A stretch of DNA of 57,977 nt from a virus. Taxonomy: Duplodnaviria; Caudoviricetes. The notes beneath the pieces were generated by a model. It saw only the letters and a list, made by a program, of their open reading frames with translations, did no database searches and was not told the DNA's origin. The translations under genes were made by a program, and so were the position numbers. Within the stretch, counting starts at the first letter, position 1. Each line of letters opens with the position of its first letter. Location of the stretch: the IMG/VR virus record IMGVR_UViG_3300042527_000500, positions 1 through 57,977 of that record; one strand, given 5' to 3'. This document shows positions 9,005 through 55,846 of this stretch, in pieces.

Positions 9005-9555
9005 CTGGGCAGTCTTGAAAATTTCTTTTTCTTGTCAGAGAATAGACACTGAACCTGTTTAAAACTCCAAGGTGTACCAAATTGCATCCCATCCCTTTTA
9101 TTATCCACTCCTACATCAAGCGTATAGCGTCCTAATGACATATCCTCGTTGTGAAGTCTGCCGTGAACATGACCATAAAGCATCCAACTATTTCGATAAC
9201 TTTTGTTCCATGCTCTCATAGGATAATGAAATAAGATTATTCTTTGATTACAGTGAATAATTTCTTTCATCAAACTTATACTGGCAAAATCTTTAGATGA
9301 AAACTTTTTTTCATCATCGTGATTACCAAGAATTATATGAACATTATCACATTCTATTTTTTTACGATATTTTTTAGGATCTCCACCCCTGTGGCAAAAA
9401 TCTCCAAGAAAATATATAGTATCTTTTGGCTTAACAACACTATTTATAGAGTCTAATATTGTGCTATCCATTTCTTTTGTGGATGAAAATGGTCGCTGAC
9501 AATATCCAATAACCCTATTGTGTCCAAAATGGGTATCTGAAAGAAAATATATCAT
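9001..9555 (-). CDS. calcineurin-like metallophosphoesterase
   Basis: SDTHFGH, LGDF, LGNHD, FHYP, YGHVH, DVGVD. Confidence 0.9.
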   Translation of the reverse strand: MIYFLSDTHFGHNRVIGYCQRPFSSTKEMDSTILDSINSVVKPKDTIYFLGDFCHRGGDPKKYRKKIECDNVHIILGNHDDEKKFSSKDFASISLMKEIIHCNQRIILFHYPMRAWNKSYRNSWMLYGHVHGRLHNEDMSLGRYTLDVGVDNKRDGMQFGTPWSFKQVQCLFSDKKKKFSRLPS

Positions 9556-9737
9556 TAGTCTCTAGATGGAAGAATTAATCCTAATACTAAATATATCCAA
9601 AATAAAATAGATCCTGTAAAAATAGTTCCTAAAATAAAGCCTAATCTTATTATTGGAGCATCAATCCCTGTTGACTCTGCTAGACCTCCACAAACTCCTA
9701 AAAATACTCTATTGGATCTTGATTTACTTAAACTCAT
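9555..9737 (-). CDS. pspC: PspC domain membrane protein
   Basis: KSRSNRVFLGVCGGLAE..GIDAPIIRL..YLVLGLILP. Confidence 0.85.
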   Translation of the reverse strand: MSLSKSRSNRVFLGVCGGLAESTGIDAPIIRLGFILGTIFTGSILFWIYLVLGLILPSRD

Positions 9738-10435
9738 ATAACACCAGCATATTCGTGTTCGTTATATTCTACATGATCGCCGCTAATATTTTCCAATAGG
9801 CTTTTAAGATTTTCGTTCTCTTTTTGCAGAGTATTTATGGCGTCTTTTGCAGTATCTAGGGCTTTAGTTAGATGATAAATTTTGTTAACGAGTTCATCGG
9901 TAACTGTATTTTTCATAATCATAATATGACTCCATATTATTTTGTTACGGGGATGATCTTTATTGATGCTGGCCTAGAATCGTCAAAATTTGGAACAAGA
10001 TTGTTATGAATATCAAGGGTAACTATTCTCAAAATATCTGAGACAAACTTTGCTGAAATTGTTTTGTAAAAGTTATCTTGAATATATACATCATATTCCA
10101 TAATATCGCCCTCCAAGTAAATATACACTAACTTAGTCTATTAAAGTTAAAAAATTAGCCATATGTTTAATCTGTTCTTTATTCAAGATTATTTGATCAG
10201 AATATGGCTTACCTTTTATCAAGACTTGATAAATATAGCGTAGTTTCTGCCAAAATGACATCTTATGACTATACGATGATAAATTTTCATATATTGATAG
10301 TTCAATTAGGTCATATTCGCTATCATATTCTAAAACCAAAACTTCACTTCTACAATCGCATAATATGAAAGTGGTTCTATTTTTTTCGAACTTTACCATG
10401 TTTAGTATTTTTACTTTTTCGGAAAATTCTTTCAT
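9734..10435 (-). other. three small hypothetical CDS (9734-9922, 9937-10101, 10133-10435)
   Basis: Tightly packed ORFs; SD motifs visible for the two shorter ones. Confidence 0.55.
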
Positions 10436-15485: not shown

Positions 15486-15494
15486 AATATTAAA

Positions 15495-15850
15495 TGGAGG
15501 CGAGGGGAGTCGAACCCCTGTCTTATCATAATCTCAAAAATATCTTCTACAAGTTTATTTCATTCATAAGTTAAATCAGAATATAGAACGAACAAGATTT
15601 TTCTGATCTTACCAACTGCTCTTAACCTACAACCCGTTGGATATTGTAAGTGCAGAGGGATTTAACGACAGACTTTTGATCGCTACCCTCATTCGCAATC
15701 GCAGTCTGTTACTGCCCGTTTTAGTTAGGCAGCAAGGGCTAACTGAGTTTCGCCAGTTAAAGCGTTTTAATCGACTTTTAAAGTGGCCTGTCGATCAACC
15801 ACTACTTGCTAATATAATTTTAATTATGTAATCGAATCCGTTACGCCCCC
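15495..15850 (-). ncRNA. ssrA: tmRNA, tag (A)GETQLALAA
   Basis: 5' GGGGGCG..GGATTCGA, 3' GACAGGGGTTCGACTCCCCTCGCCTCCA with G3.U70; pk1; tag ORF 15754-15725 after TTAACT. Confidence 0.95.
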
Positions 15851-16323: not shown

Positions 16324-16397
16324 TCCGACTACTAGGACTTGAACCTAGAACCTTGAAATTATGAGTTTCCTGCTCTGACCAATTGAGCTATAGTCGG
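16324..16397 (-). tRNA. tRNA(CAT), probably Ile2 (lysidine substrate)
   Basis: CCGACTA acceptor, CT-CAT-AA loop, A73; 5 nt downstream of the tilS stop. Confidence 0.85.
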
Positions 16398-16402
16398 GTA
16401 TT

Positions 16403-17050
16403 TTAAGTATTCTGTTTTATATCAGTAATAAGTTTGATAATTTTTCTTTGTGCAAATTTTTCTAATGATAGTTTATTCTCTTTCATTTGAGGAATAATAA
16501 AATTCCTGATCCAATTCCTGCGACTGCCCTTTATAATAGAGTTGGTTTCGTCATCAACAACATACCTCACCAAATCGTTTCTGTCAACATACTGTTTAAA
16601 GTCTTTTTTTCTTGTGAGTAAAAAGGGATGTAAAATTGAAAACGAATTAAAATTAGAAATTAGTGAAAAGACATCATTATTTGGCTGACCTCTAAAACAA
16701 TTAAGTAAATAACTTTCTACCCAATCATTAATATGGTGTGCAGTAATAATGCTACCTTTCTTAACAATTTTACTATAGAAATTTAATCTAGCATTTCTGC
16801 AATCTTTTTCTGTATTAAGATTTTTACCAATCCCAACATGACCAGACAAACCAAGGCTTGTGCAGAAGTGCAGAAATTTTTCCATCATAATAAAATTTTG
16901 ATCTCTTAAATTATGATTAAAATGAATAGGGATTAAACTATATCCTTTGCTTTGTAAATAGTGAATAGCGGCAACACTATCTACGCCCATAGAAACAGCA
17001 ACATAATATGTTCTATTTTTGGGTAAAATTTCCTTAATCGTCCTAATCAT
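16403..17050 (-). CDS. tilS: tRNA(Ile)-lysidine synthetase (catalytic domain only)
   Basis: AVSMGVDS PP-loop, HFNHNLR, TAHHINDWVES, DETN..RNWIR. Confidence 0.9.
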   Translation of the reverse strand: MIRTIKEILPKNRTYYVAVSMGVDSVAAIHYLQSKGYSLIPIHFNHNLRDQNFIMMEKFLHFCTSLGLSGHVGIGKNLNTEKDCRNARLNFYSKIVKKGSIITAHHINDWVESYLLNCFRGQPNNDVFSLISNFNSFSILHPFLLTRKKDFKQYVDRNDLVRYVVDDETNSIIKGSRRNWIRNFIIPQMKENKLSLEKFAQRKIIKLITDIKQNT

Positions 17051-42270: not shown

Positions 42271-42276
42271 ATTAAA

Positions 42277-42347
42277 AGCAAGAGACGGGACTCGAACCCG
42301 TATAATCAGGGTTGAAACCTGCCACTCTGCCATTGAGTTACTCTTGC
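42277..42347 (-). tRNA. tRNA with TCA anticodon (opal suppressor, Gly-type body)
   Basis: GCAAGAG-TA-ACTC-AATGGCA-GAGT-G-GCAGG-TT-TCA-AC-CCTGA-TTAT-ACGGG-TTCGAGT-CCCGT-CTCTTGC-T. Confidence 0.8.
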
Positions 42348-42358
42348 TAAAGCATAAC

Positions 42359-46060: not shown

Positions 46061-46146
46061 AACGGACGGTACGATTTGAACGTACTAAGAAGAGAAAGAA
46101 AGGATAATCCTTATAAAAGATACTTGTCCCACCAAGTTGCGTCCGT
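46061..46146 (-). ncRNA. tRNA-like RNA with pyrimidine-rich variable region
   Basis: ACGGACG/CGTCCGT acceptor, ACTTG/CAAGT arm, TT-TAT-AA loop, GTACG-TTCAAAT-CGTAC T-arm. Confidence 0.55.
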
Positions 46147-47813: not shown

Positions 47814-48044
47814 CCCGCATGGCGTCCCATGCAGGCTATACGGTTTGATAGTTGGTTCGTATACTATCGGTAAGTTATATATTATAGTAGCCGAACCTAT
47901 TCCCGGAAGCCACTCCGGTTATCTAGTCTGGCTTGACCGCTACTATGTTGCACCCAAGGTCTGCAACGAACCCATTACGCGGGACGAATCCCGCCGCACT
48001 ATGCCTAAAATCTATTTATACTGGCATAGTCCAGTTGGTCAAGG
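47814..48044 (-). ncRNA. multi-hairpin structured RNA candidate
   Basis: About seven stems, including GCGGGA-TTCG-TCCCGC and a possible H-type pseudoknot. Confidence 0.55.
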
Positions 48045-54414: not shown

Positions 54415-54443
54415 ATTCTACACTCCTATTATCGGTTTGTCAA
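54415..54443 (-). promoter_or_regulatory. nested promoter
   Basis: TTGACA-17-TAGAAT; TAAA-17-ACCGATAA. Confidence 0.8.
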
Positions 54444-54463
54444 TAGGCTTTTCTTTAAGAATC

Positions 54464-54543
54464 CTAAGTTGGTGCAGTATAAGACTTTACGACAAATCCG
54501 GCCGCGGCAGTTTGCCCTAAACTCTTACAGCGTAAGCATTTAG
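54464..54543. repeat. 80-bp dyad element, copy 10
   Basis: CTAAGTTGGT-N7-AAGACTTTAC..GGCCGCGG..CTAAACTCTT-N7-AAGCATTTAG. Confidence 0.9.
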
Positions 54544-54767
54544 AGCGAACCCCTTATATTGTACCAGCGGAATCTTTTACGCCCCGATTCCTATAACCCA
54601 CACGGCTACCCATTGTCTGGACCGGATGGAAACCGCCCACGGAAACCTTCCTAAGATTGGTCATGAATCAATCTATCTGGCTCTTGGTGACGATTACTGA
54701 TTGTATTTTAGATAGGCCGGGACACACATACGATGGAGCGCCCAGTTACTCCGCCTATCATTTGTAT

Positions 54768-54911
54768 TGGAGAGGTTATCGGGATTCAAACCCGCCGTTA
54801 CATTATTAGCATACTAAAACCATGGTTCATATGCTAATAGGTTCACGTATCTGTTCGGTATATTTATCAAAAAGTTTGATCAGAACCCTTTGGGAACTAC
54901 CTTATAACCCC
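54768..54911 (-). ncRNA. 144-nt tRNA-like RNA (array unit)
   Basis: GGGGTTA/TAACCTC acceptor, U8A9, CGGG-TTTGAAT-CCCG, U73-CCA; inner TATTAGCATA/TATGCTAATA. Confidence 0.65.
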
Positions 54912-54920
54912 GTATTGTAT

Positions 54921-55058
54921 TGGAACGTATGTCGGGAATCCAACCCGATAGAGAGCAGCATAAGCCTTCCCATAGTCTAGGTCGGCAACCCCGTACACCT
55001 CTTAGATGCAGACGCTGTTTGCTGGACTATCTCTCTAGTAGCGGCAACTACCATACGC
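54921..55058 (-). ncRNA. 138-nt tRNA-like RNA (array unit)
   Basis: GCGTATG/CATACGT acceptor, GTAG/CTAC arm, TAGAGAG/CTCTCTA long arm, TCGGG-TTGGATT-CCCGA, U73-CCA. Confidence 0.65.
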
Positions 55059-55692
55059 AAGTTTGTATTGTCAATGCGGTGGGATTTTACCCACACTGCC
55101 CTATGGCGGTCTAACGGACGGTTGTGGTAGTACTCCCGCCAACCGCTGGCTGCTTAACGCTTAACCTACGCATTATGTTTATGACTAGACAGGCTCCTTC
55201 CTGCAACTTTCCCAGTGTGGCGATTCTTTTACACCTCTTGGCGAGTTCTCTCGTCTAGTCTTTGTATTGAAGCGGGAGTCACGCCTATCCCGCATCCCCT
55301 TTATATTATAAGTCAACCATGGCCTTATTATGTCCAATGATTGAACTGTCTACGAACTAGAGCATTTCTCTCTAGCAAGGGTTTCGCCGCCAGCGTCCCG
55401 GCGGGTTGTATTGTTAGGGACGGATGGATTCGTTTTGGGTTGTCAACAGTGTGCTATCACCTCGACCCACCACTTGACCATCTACTTCACTGCCCGCCTC
55501 CCCATCATAGCAGACGGTTTGGCATTGAGGAGTTGCTCACGCAACCTAGCAGTCCCTTTTGTTTTGTCAATGATCGTTATTTCCGTTTACTCTTAGCCAA
55601 GGCTTTGTGTCGCGTCGCGGCTAGACCGATTTTTATAGTTACCTGCCGCACGGAACAACACGGCTGAGTAAGCAACTGTAATCAACTCTTGT

Positions 55693-55721
55693 ATTCTACA
55701 CTCCTATTATCGTCCTGTCAA
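55693..55721 (-). promoter_or_regulatory. nested promoter driving the RNA array
   Basis: TTGACA-17-TAGAAT; TCAA-17-GACGATAA. Confidence 0.8.
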
Positions 55722-55751
55722 GCACTGTTCCTTGAAAAAATCTTTTTTGAT

Positions 55752-55831
55752 GCAAGTCCTTATGGATCAAGAGTTTGCGCCGAACCCGGCCGCGGCGGTT
55801 TGCCCTAAACTCTTGGTAGTCAAGAACTTAG
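55752..55831. repeat. 80-bp dyad element, copy 11
   Basis: GCAAGTCCTT-N7-AAGAGTTTGC..CTAAACTCTT-N7-AAGAACTTAG. Confidence 0.9.
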
Positions 55832-55846
55832 AGCGAACCTTTCCGT

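What the first reader, a model, noticed from the sequence alone, without database searches (positions are those of the whole stretch)
54768..55174. Oversized tRNA-mimic RNAs with intact acceptor stem and T-arm inside the array
Seen: units 54768-54911 (144 nt) and 54921-55058 (138 nt) each have a 7-bp acceptor stem, a T-arm with a 7-nt loop (TTTGAAT, TTGGATT) stacked on it, discriminator U and then CCA. The anticodon region is replaced by a large unrelated multi-stem insert. Unit 55073-55174 has the same plan (TAATGCG/CGCATTG, U8A9, GTGGG-TAAAAT-CCCAC). None of the ordinary tRNA genes in the window encodes CCA. Caveat: the CCA overlaps the linker. Established: tmRNA and bacterial YrlA Y RNAs use tRNA-like domains. 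Inference: a tRNA scaffold is used to process or stabilise cargo RNAs, or to decoy tRNA-sensing or tRNA-cleaving defences.
Basis: partly seen in the sequence, partly recalled or inferred. Interest (0 to 1): 0.75.

Follow-up and report, generated by a model that had tools for sequence, protein, structure and literature searches.

The report
tRNA-ended RNA cassettes in lake phage
An uncultured lake phage carries a gene-free operon of small folded RNAs, three of which end like the top half of a tRNA; they belong to uncatalogued RNA families that related phages share and reshuffle, and their job is still unknown.

Summary
On the minus strand, units 54911-54768 (U6), 55058-54921 (U5) and 55174-55073 (U4b) each close with a 7-8 bp stem stacked on a 4-5 bp hairpin, about 12 stacked pairs. 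U5 and U6 carry a T-loop-like 7-nt loop. ARAGORN and Rfam call none of them.

They are three of about eight cassettes in a promoter-driven, ORF-free operon (about 55721 to 54500). (C)AAUACAA spacers separate the cassettes, and a conserved RNA, U8, ends the operon.

U5 belongs to a large family: 60 matches in 71 sources. Its fold is cloverleaf-like with a pseudoknot, and 31 of 44 pairs show compensatory changes. Most members have a triloop hairpin where the T-loop would sit.

The encoded CCA is not conserved in U5 (3 of 7 close relatives; 22 of 33 main-type members). It is absent in U4b and present in all 6 U6 sequences.

Related phages and lake populations carry different cassette combinations.

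Best reading (about 0.5): the tRNA-like end is a handle for host tRNA-end enzymes, which cut out and stabilise the cargo RNAs. What the cargo does is unknown.

The closest known RNAs are T4 RNAC/RNAD and T5 RNA1/RNA2. This scan has already reported the same arrays on other phage DNA.

The parts
55693..55721 (-). Promoter of the RNA operon: TTGACA (55721-55716), 17-nt spacer, TAGAAT (55698-55693)
   Evidence: Read from the sequence. The same TTGACA-N17-TAGAAT layout heads the arrays of related phages.
55572..55690 (-). U1: leader segment that ends in a variant spacer (TTGACAAAACAAAA)
   Evidence: Sequence and fold. No relative was found among the loci.
55411..55565 (-). U2 cassette (closing stem AGGGAC/GTCCCT)
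   Evidence: Fold. 88-98% identical copies lie in L014, L035, L042, L072 and L081.
55267..55405 (-). U3 cassette (no closing stem predicted)
   Evidence: Fold. Only partial matches, in L072 and L081.
55180..55261 (-). U4a cassette (long hairpin domain)
   Evidence: Fold. A 95% identical copy lies in L087.
55073..55174 (-). It has a 7-bp closing stem and the hairpin GTGGG-UAAAAU-CCCAC. An apical loop holds the palindrome AGUACU. There is no CCA.
   Evidence: Copies lie in L042 (89%), L048 and L051 (98-99%) and L077 (96%). Compensatory changes occur in both stems.
54916..55066 (-). It is a divergent member of the pseudoknotted cloverleaf-like family modelled as R1.
   Evidence: The match to R1 is full length, 38.7 bits, E about 1e-9, and the model was built without this subtype.
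54768..54911 (-). It has an 8+4 (or 7+5) bp acceptor/T-like stack, the T-like loop UUUGAAU, a hairpin with the loop CUGAUCA, a long hairpin with a palindromic apex, and U-CCA at the 3' end.
   Evidence: 96-98% identical copies lie in L042, L048, L051, L058 and L085, and a divergent copy lies in L004. The consensus fold has 10 pairs changed on both sides.
54706..54761 (-). U7 cassette (56 nt, 7-bp closing stem)
   Evidence: Fold. Copies lie in L042, L048, L051, L058, L060, L074 and L075.
54555..54712 (-). U8: the conserved last RNA of the array, present in nearly all related arrays
   Evidence: Two exact motifs of U8 found 28 and 50 viral contigs. nhmmer gave 63 hits, 54 of them distinct and full length.
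54762..54769 (-). Spacer CAAUACAA. Further copies lie at 54915-54922, 55063-55070, 55262-55269 and 55406-55413. AAUACAA also occurs at 54701-54707 and 55689-55695.
   Evidence: 5 of the 7 minus-strand CAATACAA of the whole window lie in 54762-55413. The AATACAA copies outside the array lie in AT-rich sequence well outside it.
54500..54551 (-). Repeated dyad element after the array, likely a terminator or boundary. It is followed by the next promoter.
   Evidence: The same element lies at 55788-55839, 81% identical. Copies also lie in relatives.

Best explanation
The three units are separate cassettes of one promoter-driven, RNA-only operon of a lake phage.

Each cassette folds on its own. Its 5' and 3' ends pair, and this closing stem stacks on a short hairpin to give about 12 stacked pairs. 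That stack copies the acceptor/T-arm half of a tRNA. The rest of each cassette is a structured cargo. In U5 the cargo is a conserved pseudoknotted core.

Most likely, host tRNA-end enzymes read the tRNA-like end. RNase P would cut at the base of the stem. 3' trimming, and perhaps CCA repair, would finish the other end. In this way the A/C-rich AAUACAA spacers are removed and unit-length, nuclease-resistant RNAs are released from the precursor.

**Shown here:** the anatomy, the conservation, the covariation, the cassette exchange and the operon layout.

**Inferred:** processing by RNase P and partners, and stabilisation.

**Unknown:** what the cargos do.
For: 1. **Anatomy.** The units lie at the stated coordinates. 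The strict scan recovers U5 and U6 together with all 12 of 12 true tRNAs, while shuffles give a mean of 1.1 hits.
2. **The 12-bp stack recurs.** U6 has 8+4 bp, U5 has 7+5 and U4b has 7+5. Main-type U5 relatives have 6+6.
4. **Leader of U5.** U at -1 occurs in 29 of 33 main-type sequences. The ACAAAC leader is kept whether a spacer or a promoter lies upstream.
5. **CCA.** It lies within 0-1 nt after the stem in 22 of 33 main-type U5 and in all 6 aligned U6 sequences. None of the phage's 12 true tRNA genes encodes CCA.
6. **One promoter, no ORF signal.** There are about eight closed domains with five CAAUACAA spacers.
7. **Cassettes are autonomous.**
   - The same units occur at 89-99% identity in other combinations in related contigs.
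   - DNA contigs of lake metagenomes join across missing cassettes at or next to the unit boundaries.
8. **Real structured RNA.** Model R1 was built without the window subtype, yet it finds U5 full length.
   - On alignment A4, 95.8% of cells are paired and 20 of 44 pairs are compensatory. The slid controls give 32-39%.
   - On alignment A5, 94.7% of cells are paired and 31 of 44 pairs are compensatory.
9. **Precedent.** T4 RNAC (139 nt), T5 RNA1 (144 nt) and T5 RNA2 (125 nt) are stable RNAs in phage tRNA clusters. They fold with the same end plan.
Against: - **No RNA ends were seen.** The only contig from RNA-labelled libraries is 228 nt at depth 3.6. X23 and X24 look like one data set. The contig runs across both junctions of a U6 copy, so it is either an unprocessed precursor or contaminating DNA.
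- **Most of the U5 family lacks a T-loop.** Those members have a 6-bp hairpin with an NGC triloop at that place.
- **CCA is often missing.** It is absent in 11 of 33 main-type and 4 of 7 window-type U5, and in U4b.
- **Other cassettes have no tRNA-like end.** U2, U3, U4a, U7 and U8 would need another route if they are released at all.
- **The strict unit is a minority feature.** Only 11 of 55 distinct arrays hold an oversized unit that passes the strict rule.
- **Host and partner enzymes are unknown.**
  - The host, and so its RNase P type, is not known.
  - Five complete related genomes encode no CCA-adding enzyme (0 of 5), and 1 of 5 encodes RtcB. No phage partner enzyme therefore points to the mechanism.
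Confidence: 0.5

Rival explanations
1. The whole transcript of about 1.1 kb works as one large multi-domain 'ornate' RNA, as GOLLD and ROOL do. The tRNA-like ends are only compact structural modules and the spacers are flexible linkers. Palindromic apical loops let copies associate.
For: - There is a single promoter and a universally conserved 3' RNA (U8), with a variable 5' part. [quoted passage not shown] It also reports GOLLD lying near tRNA islands of phages, sometimes with tRNAs inside.
- The RNA-library contig spans two junctions.
- Palindromes in loops:
  - U8 hairpin 1 has a palindrome of 6 nt or more in 10 of 14 sequence clusters. The shuffle mean is 5.3, and 23 of 2000 shuffles reach 10.
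  - It has a palindrome of 8 nt or more in 6 of 14 clusters. The shuffle mean is 1.6, and 8 of 2000 shuffles reach 6.
  - U6 carries CUGAUCA and U4b carries AGUACU.
Against: - Cassettes are freely added, lost and reordered between close relatives. That is hard to reconcile with one integrated fold.
- Every cassette closes on itself.
- No GOLLD or ROOL match appears at E up to 10.
Confidence: 0.17
2. The units are decoys or sponges for host proteins that recognise tRNA, such as tRNA-cleaving defence nucleases, modification enzymes or sensors. The tRNA-like half would be the active part.
For: - The acceptor/T mimicry includes a G-C loop-closing pair with U, U, R and A at loop positions 1, 2, 4 and 5 in U5 and U6.
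- The U6 hairpin has a 7-nt loop, CUGAUCA, that looks like an anticodon loop.
- The locus lies among small genes behind sigma-70-type promoters. That these are early genes is my inference.
- Cassette content turns over fast, as accessory arms-race loci do.
Against: - Most U5-family members lack the T-loop yet keep the cargo. Selection therefore acts on the cargo.
- None of the three has a 5-bp anticodon stem or a D-arm.
- The CUGAUCA loop recurs in a hairpin of a U8 variant in a non-tRNA context.
- No defence or nuclease link was found.
Confidence: 0.13
3. The units are chargeable tRNA-like molecules. They would act in translation or in amino-acid transfer, as the tRNA-like domain of tmRNA does.
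For: - U5 and U6 in the window have a 7-8 bp acceptor-like stem, a single unpaired U and then CCA.
- CCA is kept in all 6 aligned U6 sequences even where the linker changes.
Against: - There is no G3.U70 pair and no other clear identity set.
- CCA is not conserved in U5 and is absent in U4b.
- There is no tmRNA or tRNA model match at E up to 10.
- The phage already has its own tmRNA at 15492-15850.
Confidence: 0.05
4. The units are decaying pseudo-tRNAs, tRNAs interrupted by introns, or chance hairpins.
For: They lie in a phage with many tRNA genes. Lak megaphages are reported to carry tRNAs with 'enigmatic introns' (PMC6784885, passages read).
Against: - The inserts are conserved and covary, including a pseudoknot.
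- No anticodon arm flanks the insert.
- ARAGORN and Rfam find no tRNA there.
- The same units are kept at 89-99% identity in several contigs.
Confidence: 0.03

Closest known systems
Phage T4 RNAC (species 1, 139 nt) and RNAD (species 2, 119 nt)
   Same: - They are small stable RNAs encoded in a phage tRNA cluster.
- RNAC folds with a canonical T-arm next to a terminal stem and a large interior.
- Their roles are unknown (PMC3014915 and PMC9697503, passages read).
   Different: - There is no sequence or structure match to model R1 at E up to 10.
- T4 has two fixed genes beside its tRNAs, not a reshuffled multi-cassette operon with AAUACAA spacers.
- The terminal stem of RNAC is imperfect.
Phage T5 RNA1 (144 nt) and RNA2 (125 nt), annotated 'tRNA-like stable RNA with unknown functions'
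   Same: - They have an acceptor-like stem stacked on a T-arm, with an oversized interior.
- They lie among tRNA genes together with other small stable RNAs.
   Different: - There is no R1 match.
- They are interspersed with true tRNAs and ORFs rather than forming an RNA-only operon.
tRNA-like domain of tmRNA and of bacterial Y RNA (YrlA)
   Same: - They mimic the acceptor/T half of a tRNA, with another domain in place of the anticodon arm.
- M. smegmatis YrlA is cut by RNase P and gains CCA (PMC4201824, passages read).
   Different: - There is no model match.
- There is no tag reading frame and no G3.U70 pair.
- There is no Ro/TROVE gene in the window or in 5 complete relatives.
- In YrlA the tRNA-like part is internal, and the RNA ends form the Ro-binding stem.
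tRNA-like processing signals (plant mitochondrial t-elements) and the engineered 'tRNA scaffold' for recombinant RNA
   Same: A tRNA-like fold is used to define transcript ends, or to let a foreign RNA placed in the anticodon position accumulate. I saw only the search listing and abstract for PMC1920247 and PMC3753655.
   Different: Those are mRNA punctuation marks or laboratory constructs that keep D and T arms. Here the D-arm is missing or replaced, and the system is natural and phage-borne. No processing was shown here.
GOLLD and ROOL large ornate phage RNAs
   Same: - They are phage-borne and lie near tRNA genes.
- They have complex pseudoknotted folds.
- Palindromic loops mediate symmetric kissing contacts (PMC12286853, passages read).
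   Different: - There is no match to their Rfam models.
- They are single RNAs of 500-800 nt, not strings of exchangeable units of 50-160 nt.

Membership tests
tRNA (Rfam RF00005; ARAGORN) | Cloverleaf with a D-arm and a 5-bp anticodon stem with a 7-nt loop, detected by tRNA models | tested here: not met
   ARAGORN tRNAs and one tmRNA in the window, none in 54420-55846. Rfam finds no tRNA match there at the gathering score or at E up to 10.
tRNA (Rfam RF00005; ARAGORN) | 7-bp acceptor stem coaxial with a 5-bp T-stem (12 bp) and a T-loop with a G53-C61 closing pair, U54, U55, R57 and A58 | tested here: met
   U5 and U6 pass the strict scan that recovers all 12 of 12 true tRNAs. U4b has the 7+5 stack but a 6-nt loop. 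C56 is replaced by U in U6 and by G in U5.
tRNA (Rfam RF00005; ARAGORN) | A functional 3' CCA end, and aminoacylation | not testable with these tools
   CCA is encoded in U5 and U6 of the window. It is not conserved in U5 and is absent in U4b. Charging cannot be tested here.
tmRNA (RF00023) | tRNA-like domain with G3.U70, a tag reading frame and pseudoknots; a model match | tested here: not met
   There is no match at E up to 10 and no G3.U70 pair. The phage's real tmRNA lies at 15492-15850.
Bacterial Y RNA / YrlA | A model match, and a neighbouring Ro60/Rsr (TROVE) gene | tested here: not met
   There is no Rfam match at E up to 10. TROVE is found in 0 of 1 (window record) and 0 of 5 complete related genomes.
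GOLLD / ROOL | A match to the Rfam covariance models | tested here: not met
   No match in the window, in the array at E up to 10, or in the L042 array.
   U5 scores 38.7 bits, E about 1e-9, over model positions 1-154 of 154, although its subtype was left out of the model. The pseudoknot is kept as AUAGUC/GACUAU in the window and AUAGCC/GGCUAU in close relatives.
T4 RNAC/RNAD and T5 RNA1/RNA2 (phage tRNA-cluster stable RNAs) | Homology to those RNAs | tested here: not met
   R1 finds nothing in the T4 and T5 loci at E up to 10. blastn of the array against 50,697 phage records finds nothing. The resemblance is one of plan only.

The most novel reading that the evidence does not exclude
Lake phages keep a swappable library of small RNA cassettes with two shared features. 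A tRNA top-half end lets the host's tRNA machinery cut them out and protect them. Self-complementary apical loops (UGAUCA, AGUACU, UCAUGA, GCUAGC and others) make the released units pair with copies of themselves.

The result would be RNA-only dimers or larger assemblies: a small, modular counterpart of the ROOL and GOLLD cages. Phages would exchange these cassettes like accessory genes, possibly as an RNA-level toolkit against the host.
Probability: 0.15. Interest if true: 0.85.

Novelty: new variant of a known kind. Interest (0 to 1): 0.62.

Why it matters
Small stable, tRNA-like RNAs are annotated in the tRNA regions of phages T4 and T5, and their roles are still described as unknown.

The families described here are much larger and more diverse. 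That gives real comparative power:
- a pseudoknotted core with dozens of covarying pairs;
- subtypes with and without a T-loop;
- natural cassette swaps.

If the tRNA-like end is indeed a maturation handle, these phages would hold a natural version of the laboratory 'tRNA scaffold'. They would also hold a set of compact, self-folding and possibly self-associating RNAs of unknown function, ready for biochemical and structural study.

None of the modules is in Rfam 15. My literature searches found no description of them.

Tried and rejected
**Searches that found nothing or only chance matches**
- Rfam at E up to 10 on the array gave only two weak matches, which I read as chance (mir-8521 and a CRISPR repeat). 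On the L042 array it gave only mir-155.
- blastn of the array against GenBank phages found no match.
- The U8 17-mer in bacterial and archaeal genomes returned 120 or more stretches. blastn showed at most 29 matching bases around the seed, so these are chance and give no host clue.
- The U6 gapped pattern found 16 stretches in metagenomes. Only 3 are U6; 13 are unrelated, and most look like coding sequence.
- RNAalifold on the raw MAFFT alignment of all 47 U5-family sequences found only 14 pairs because the middle is misaligned. I replaced it with a hand-drawn structure on 33 main-type sequences, then re-aligned with the model.

**Sequencing runs**
- 24 runs were listed, mostly lake water. The two RNA-labelled runs hold 7% of the sampled words. 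Laid, they gave one 228-nt contig and no end information.
- Parts without cover are not evidence.
- I draw no conclusion on expression level or habitat from these runs.

**Palindrome test**
- The first version assumed the palindrome sits at the exact centre of the hairpin. It was mis-designed: 6 of 37 segments passed, because the palindromes are offset within the loops.
- I replaced it. The enrichment is moderate, not overwhelming.

**Partner enzymes**
- Five complete relatives were searched. PolyA_pol was found in 0 of 5, RtcB in 1 of 5 and TROVE in 0 of 5.
- Pfam on 20 of the 53 ORFs of 120 aa or more in the window found no RNA-processing enzyme, apart from a PP-loop (TilS-like) protein.

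**Readings rejected**
- AAUACAA as part of internal promoters: no usable -10 box follows it.
- U5 as a mini RNase P RNA or an HDV-like ribozyme: the resemblance is only superficial and there is no model match.

**Not done**
- No structure prediction or protein searches, because the finding is RNA.
- No covariance model for U6, U4b or U8.
- Supplementary tables of the cited papers were not opened. The YrlA phage list and the Lak tRNA intron table could bear on the comparison.
Full report
**Setting**

The window is an IMG/VR virus record of 57,977 bases, estimated 42% complete. The tRNA genes, the tmRNA and the ORFs I examined lie on the minus strand.

The window holds 12 tRNA genes, a tmRNA and a Pistol ribozyme. 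The stretch 54420-55846 has no credible minus-strand ORF. On the minus strand it begins with a TTGACA-N17-TAGAAT promoter at 55721-55693. It ends in a dyad element that is repeated elsewhere in the window.

Between these ends lie about eight separately folding domains, which I call U1 to U8. The spacer (C)AAUACAA separates them. Five of the seven minus-strand CAATACAA of the whole window lie within 54762-55413. The AATACAA copies outside the array lie in AT-rich sequence well outside it.

**Check of the observation**

The three units of the finding are U6 (54911-54768), U5 (55058-54921) and U4b (55174-55073), all on the minus strand.

Closing stem and neighbouring hairpin add up to about 12 stacked pairs:
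- U6: 8+4, or 7+5 with one G.A;
- U5: 7+5;
- U4b: 7+5.

The hairpin loops of U5 and U6 have a G-C closing pair and U, U, R and A at the T-loop positions 54, 55, 57 and 58. They lack C56. U4b has a 6-nt loop.

A strict scan for this plan gave 18 hit rows. They cover all 12 of 12 annotated tRNAs, U5, and U6 (two rows). They also include one uncalled 85-nt unit at 46062-46146 and two hits that are probably chance. Shuffled windows give 1.1 hits on average.

None of the 12 true tRNA genes is followed by CCA. ARAGORN and Rfam see no tRNA, tmRNA or Y RNA in the array, even at E up to 10.

**Relatives**

- A flanking protein led to three close loci.
- Two exact motifs of U8 led to 28 and 50 viral contigs.
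- A U6 motif led to one more viral contig and three metagenome contigs.
- blastn shows that the cassettes recur in different combinations:
  - U4b in L042, L048, L051 and L077;
  - window-type U5 in eight loci;
  - U6 in five loci, plus a divergent copy in L004;
  - U7 in seven loci;
  - U2 in five loci.
- The common plan of the arrays is: promoter, optional cassettes, a U5-family RNA, a spacer, then U8.
- In five complete related genomes of 180-233 kb, the U5 family occupies one locus per genome. Four have one copy and one has two tandem copies.
- DNA contigs from lake metagenomes join across missing cassettes at or next to unit boundaries. The joints run 55176 to 55414, 55407 to 55684, and 54915 to inside U8.

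**U5 is a member of a large structured family**

nhmmer found 59 hits, of which 47 are distinct and full length. I aligned 33 main-type sequences, leaving out the window subtype, and drew the structure by hand:
- P1, a closing stem of 6-7 bp;
- P2, a short hairpin in the D-arm position;
- P3, a long arm;
- a bulge that pairs with the loop of hairpin P6 to form a pseudoknot;
- P4;
- a variable P5;
- P7, a hairpin in the T-arm position.

| Alignment | Cells paired | Pairs changed on both sides | Control |
|---|---|---|---|
| A4, 33 sequences | 95.8% | 20 of 44 | 32-39% paired when partners are slid |
| A5, 60 matches, 47 distinct | 94.7% | 31 of 44 | 35-38% paired when partners are slid |

In A4 one pseudoknot pair is G-C in 17 sequences and C-G in 16.

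The covariance model R1 then found the window's U5 full length at 38.7 bits. It found 60 matches in 71 sources. The A5 alignment is fitted to the model, which favours the structure, but A4 is not. The window subtype keeps the pseudoknot with other letters, and these covary within the subtype.

**What this does to the tRNA reading**

In the main type, P7 is a 6-bp hairpin with an NGC triloop, not a T-loop. Two subtypes, the window's and the L016/L026/L040 type, have 7-nt T-loop-like loops. The stack of about 12 bp is kept throughout.

CCA occurrence:
- U5 window subtype: CCA follows the stem in 3 of 7 distinct sequences.
- U5 main type: CCA lies within 0-1 nt in 22 of 33.
- U4b: none.
- U6: present in all 6 aligned sequences, including one where the linker itself differs.

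U at -1 is found in 29 of 33 main-type U5.

The U6 fold is supported by the comparison of its two lineages: 10 of 43 pairs changed on both sides. That is only two independent lineages. The two end helices of U4b show compensatory changes among four sequences.

**Mechanism**

I favour, at about 0.5, that the acceptor/T-like stack is a handle for host tRNA-end enzymes. These would release and protect the cassettes. The reasons:
- the polycistronic layout;
- the 12-bp stack;
- the conserved leader with U at -1;
- the frequent CCA;
- the published case of a tRNA-like Y RNA that RNase P cuts and that gains CCA, where a 7-bp stem was called a major determinant (PMC4201824, passages read).

Nothing here shows processing. 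The single contig from RNA-labelled libraries spans both junctions of a U6 copy, and it may be DNA. Other cassettes lack such an end. Only 11 of 55 distinct arrays hold a strictly tRNA-ended oversized unit. The related phages encode no CCA-adding enzyme and no Ro protein, and one of five has RtcB.

**A second recurring feature**

Apical loops often hold self-complementary words:
- CUGAUCA in both U6 lineages, and again in a hairpin of a U8 variant;
- AGUACU in U4b;
- in hairpin 1 of U8, UCAUGA, GCUAGC, UGCGCA, UUCCGGAA, GGUACC or UGAUCA, depending on the lineage.

For U8 hairpin 1:
- 10 of 14 sequence clusters hold a palindrome of 6 nt or more. The shuffle mean is 5.3, and 23 of 2000 shuffles reach 10.
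- 6 of 14 hold one of 8 nt or more. The shuffle mean is 1.6, and 8 of 2000 shuffles reach 6.

Switching between different palindromes in a loop is the argument used for symmetric kissing contacts in OLE and GOLLD (PMC12286853, passages read). This is suggestive of self-association, not proof.

**Comparison with known RNAs**

- T4 RNAC and RNAD, and T5 RNA1 and RNA2, are annotated stable RNAs in phage tRNA clusters. T5's are labelled tRNA-like with unknown functions.
- RNAC, RNA1 and RNA2 fold with a T-arm next to a terminal stem and a large interior. They are not homologues by model R1 or by blastn.
- The roles of RNAC and RNAD are still called unknown (PMC3014915 and PMC9697503, passages read).

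The units therefore work like these RNAs in plan, but they belong to other, uncatalogued families.

**Earlier notes of this scan**

Several earlier notes describe the same kind of array on other lake-phage DNA and name the same T4 comparison. I re-derived the family, the fold and the cassette exchange independently here.

- the CCA test;
- the 12-bp count;
- the finding that the T-loop is dispensable within the U5 family;
- the joints in lake populations;
- the palindromic-loop test.

I could not test that.

**Verdict**

This is a real set of RNA genes, apparently undescribed in print. It is a new variant of the old and still unexplained class of phage tRNA-like stable RNAs.

Noticed in passing
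window 54555-54712 (-) and U8 copies in L004-L089: Hairpin 1 of U8 switches between different self-complementary loop words in different lineages: UCAUGA, GCUAGC, UGCGCA, UUCCGGAA, GGUACC and UGAUCA. U6 (CUGAUCA) and U4b (AGUACU) also carry palindromic apical loops. This may mark symmetric kissing contacts.
   Followed up: partly
window 46062-46146 (-): An 85-nt unit has a 7-bp terminal stem and a GTACG-TTCAAAT-CGTAC hairpin, followed by TTTT. ARAGORN and Rfam do not call it. It may be another tRNA-ended RNA, or a terminator.
   Followed up: no
window 47973-48035 (-); L005 9551-9614: A Pistol self-cleaving ribozyme (55.7 bits, gathering score 34.5) lies beside the tRNA-Arg gene. The relative L005 also carries a Pistol match (9551-9614) close to a tRNA-Arg gene (9773-9844).
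   Followed up: no
window 16403-17050 (-) with tRNA 16324-16397 (-): A PP-loop ATPase (ATP_bind_3; I recall this as the TilS family) is encoded directly upstream of a tRNA with anticodon CAU. The pair may be a phage lysidine synthase with its tRNA-Ile2.
   Followed up: no
window 42276-42348 (-): A tRNA with anticodon UCA, which ARAGORN labels SeC, lies in tandem with tRNA-Gly(UCC). It is a possible opal suppressor.
   Followed up: no
window 54500-54551 and 55788-55839 (-); copies in L004, L005, L014: A conserved dyad element of about 50-80 nt follows genes and the RNA array and precedes the next promoter. Two overlapping hairpins can be drawn in it. It may be a terminator or a boundary element.
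   Followed up: partly
L004 6715-6810; also L014, L016, L024, L041 arrays: Relatives carry cassettes with a tRNA-like acceptor stem, D-arm and canonical T-arm, but an odd 30-50 nt region in place of the anticodon arm. Some have their own promoter. ARAGORN did not call the one in L004.
   Followed up: partly
L015, L017, L019, L036, L039 (3' end of U8): In some relatives U8 is followed directly by AAUACAA, a Shine-Dalgarno sequence and an ATG, with no promoter between. There the RNA array would be the 5' part of an mRNA.
   Followed up: no
window 54762-54922, runs X23 and X24: A 228-nt contig from libraries labelled as metatranscriptomic joins the 3' end of a main-type U5, a U6 copy and the start of a U8. 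This cassette order is not the window's. It may be a precursor RNA or DNA carry-over.
   Followed up: partly
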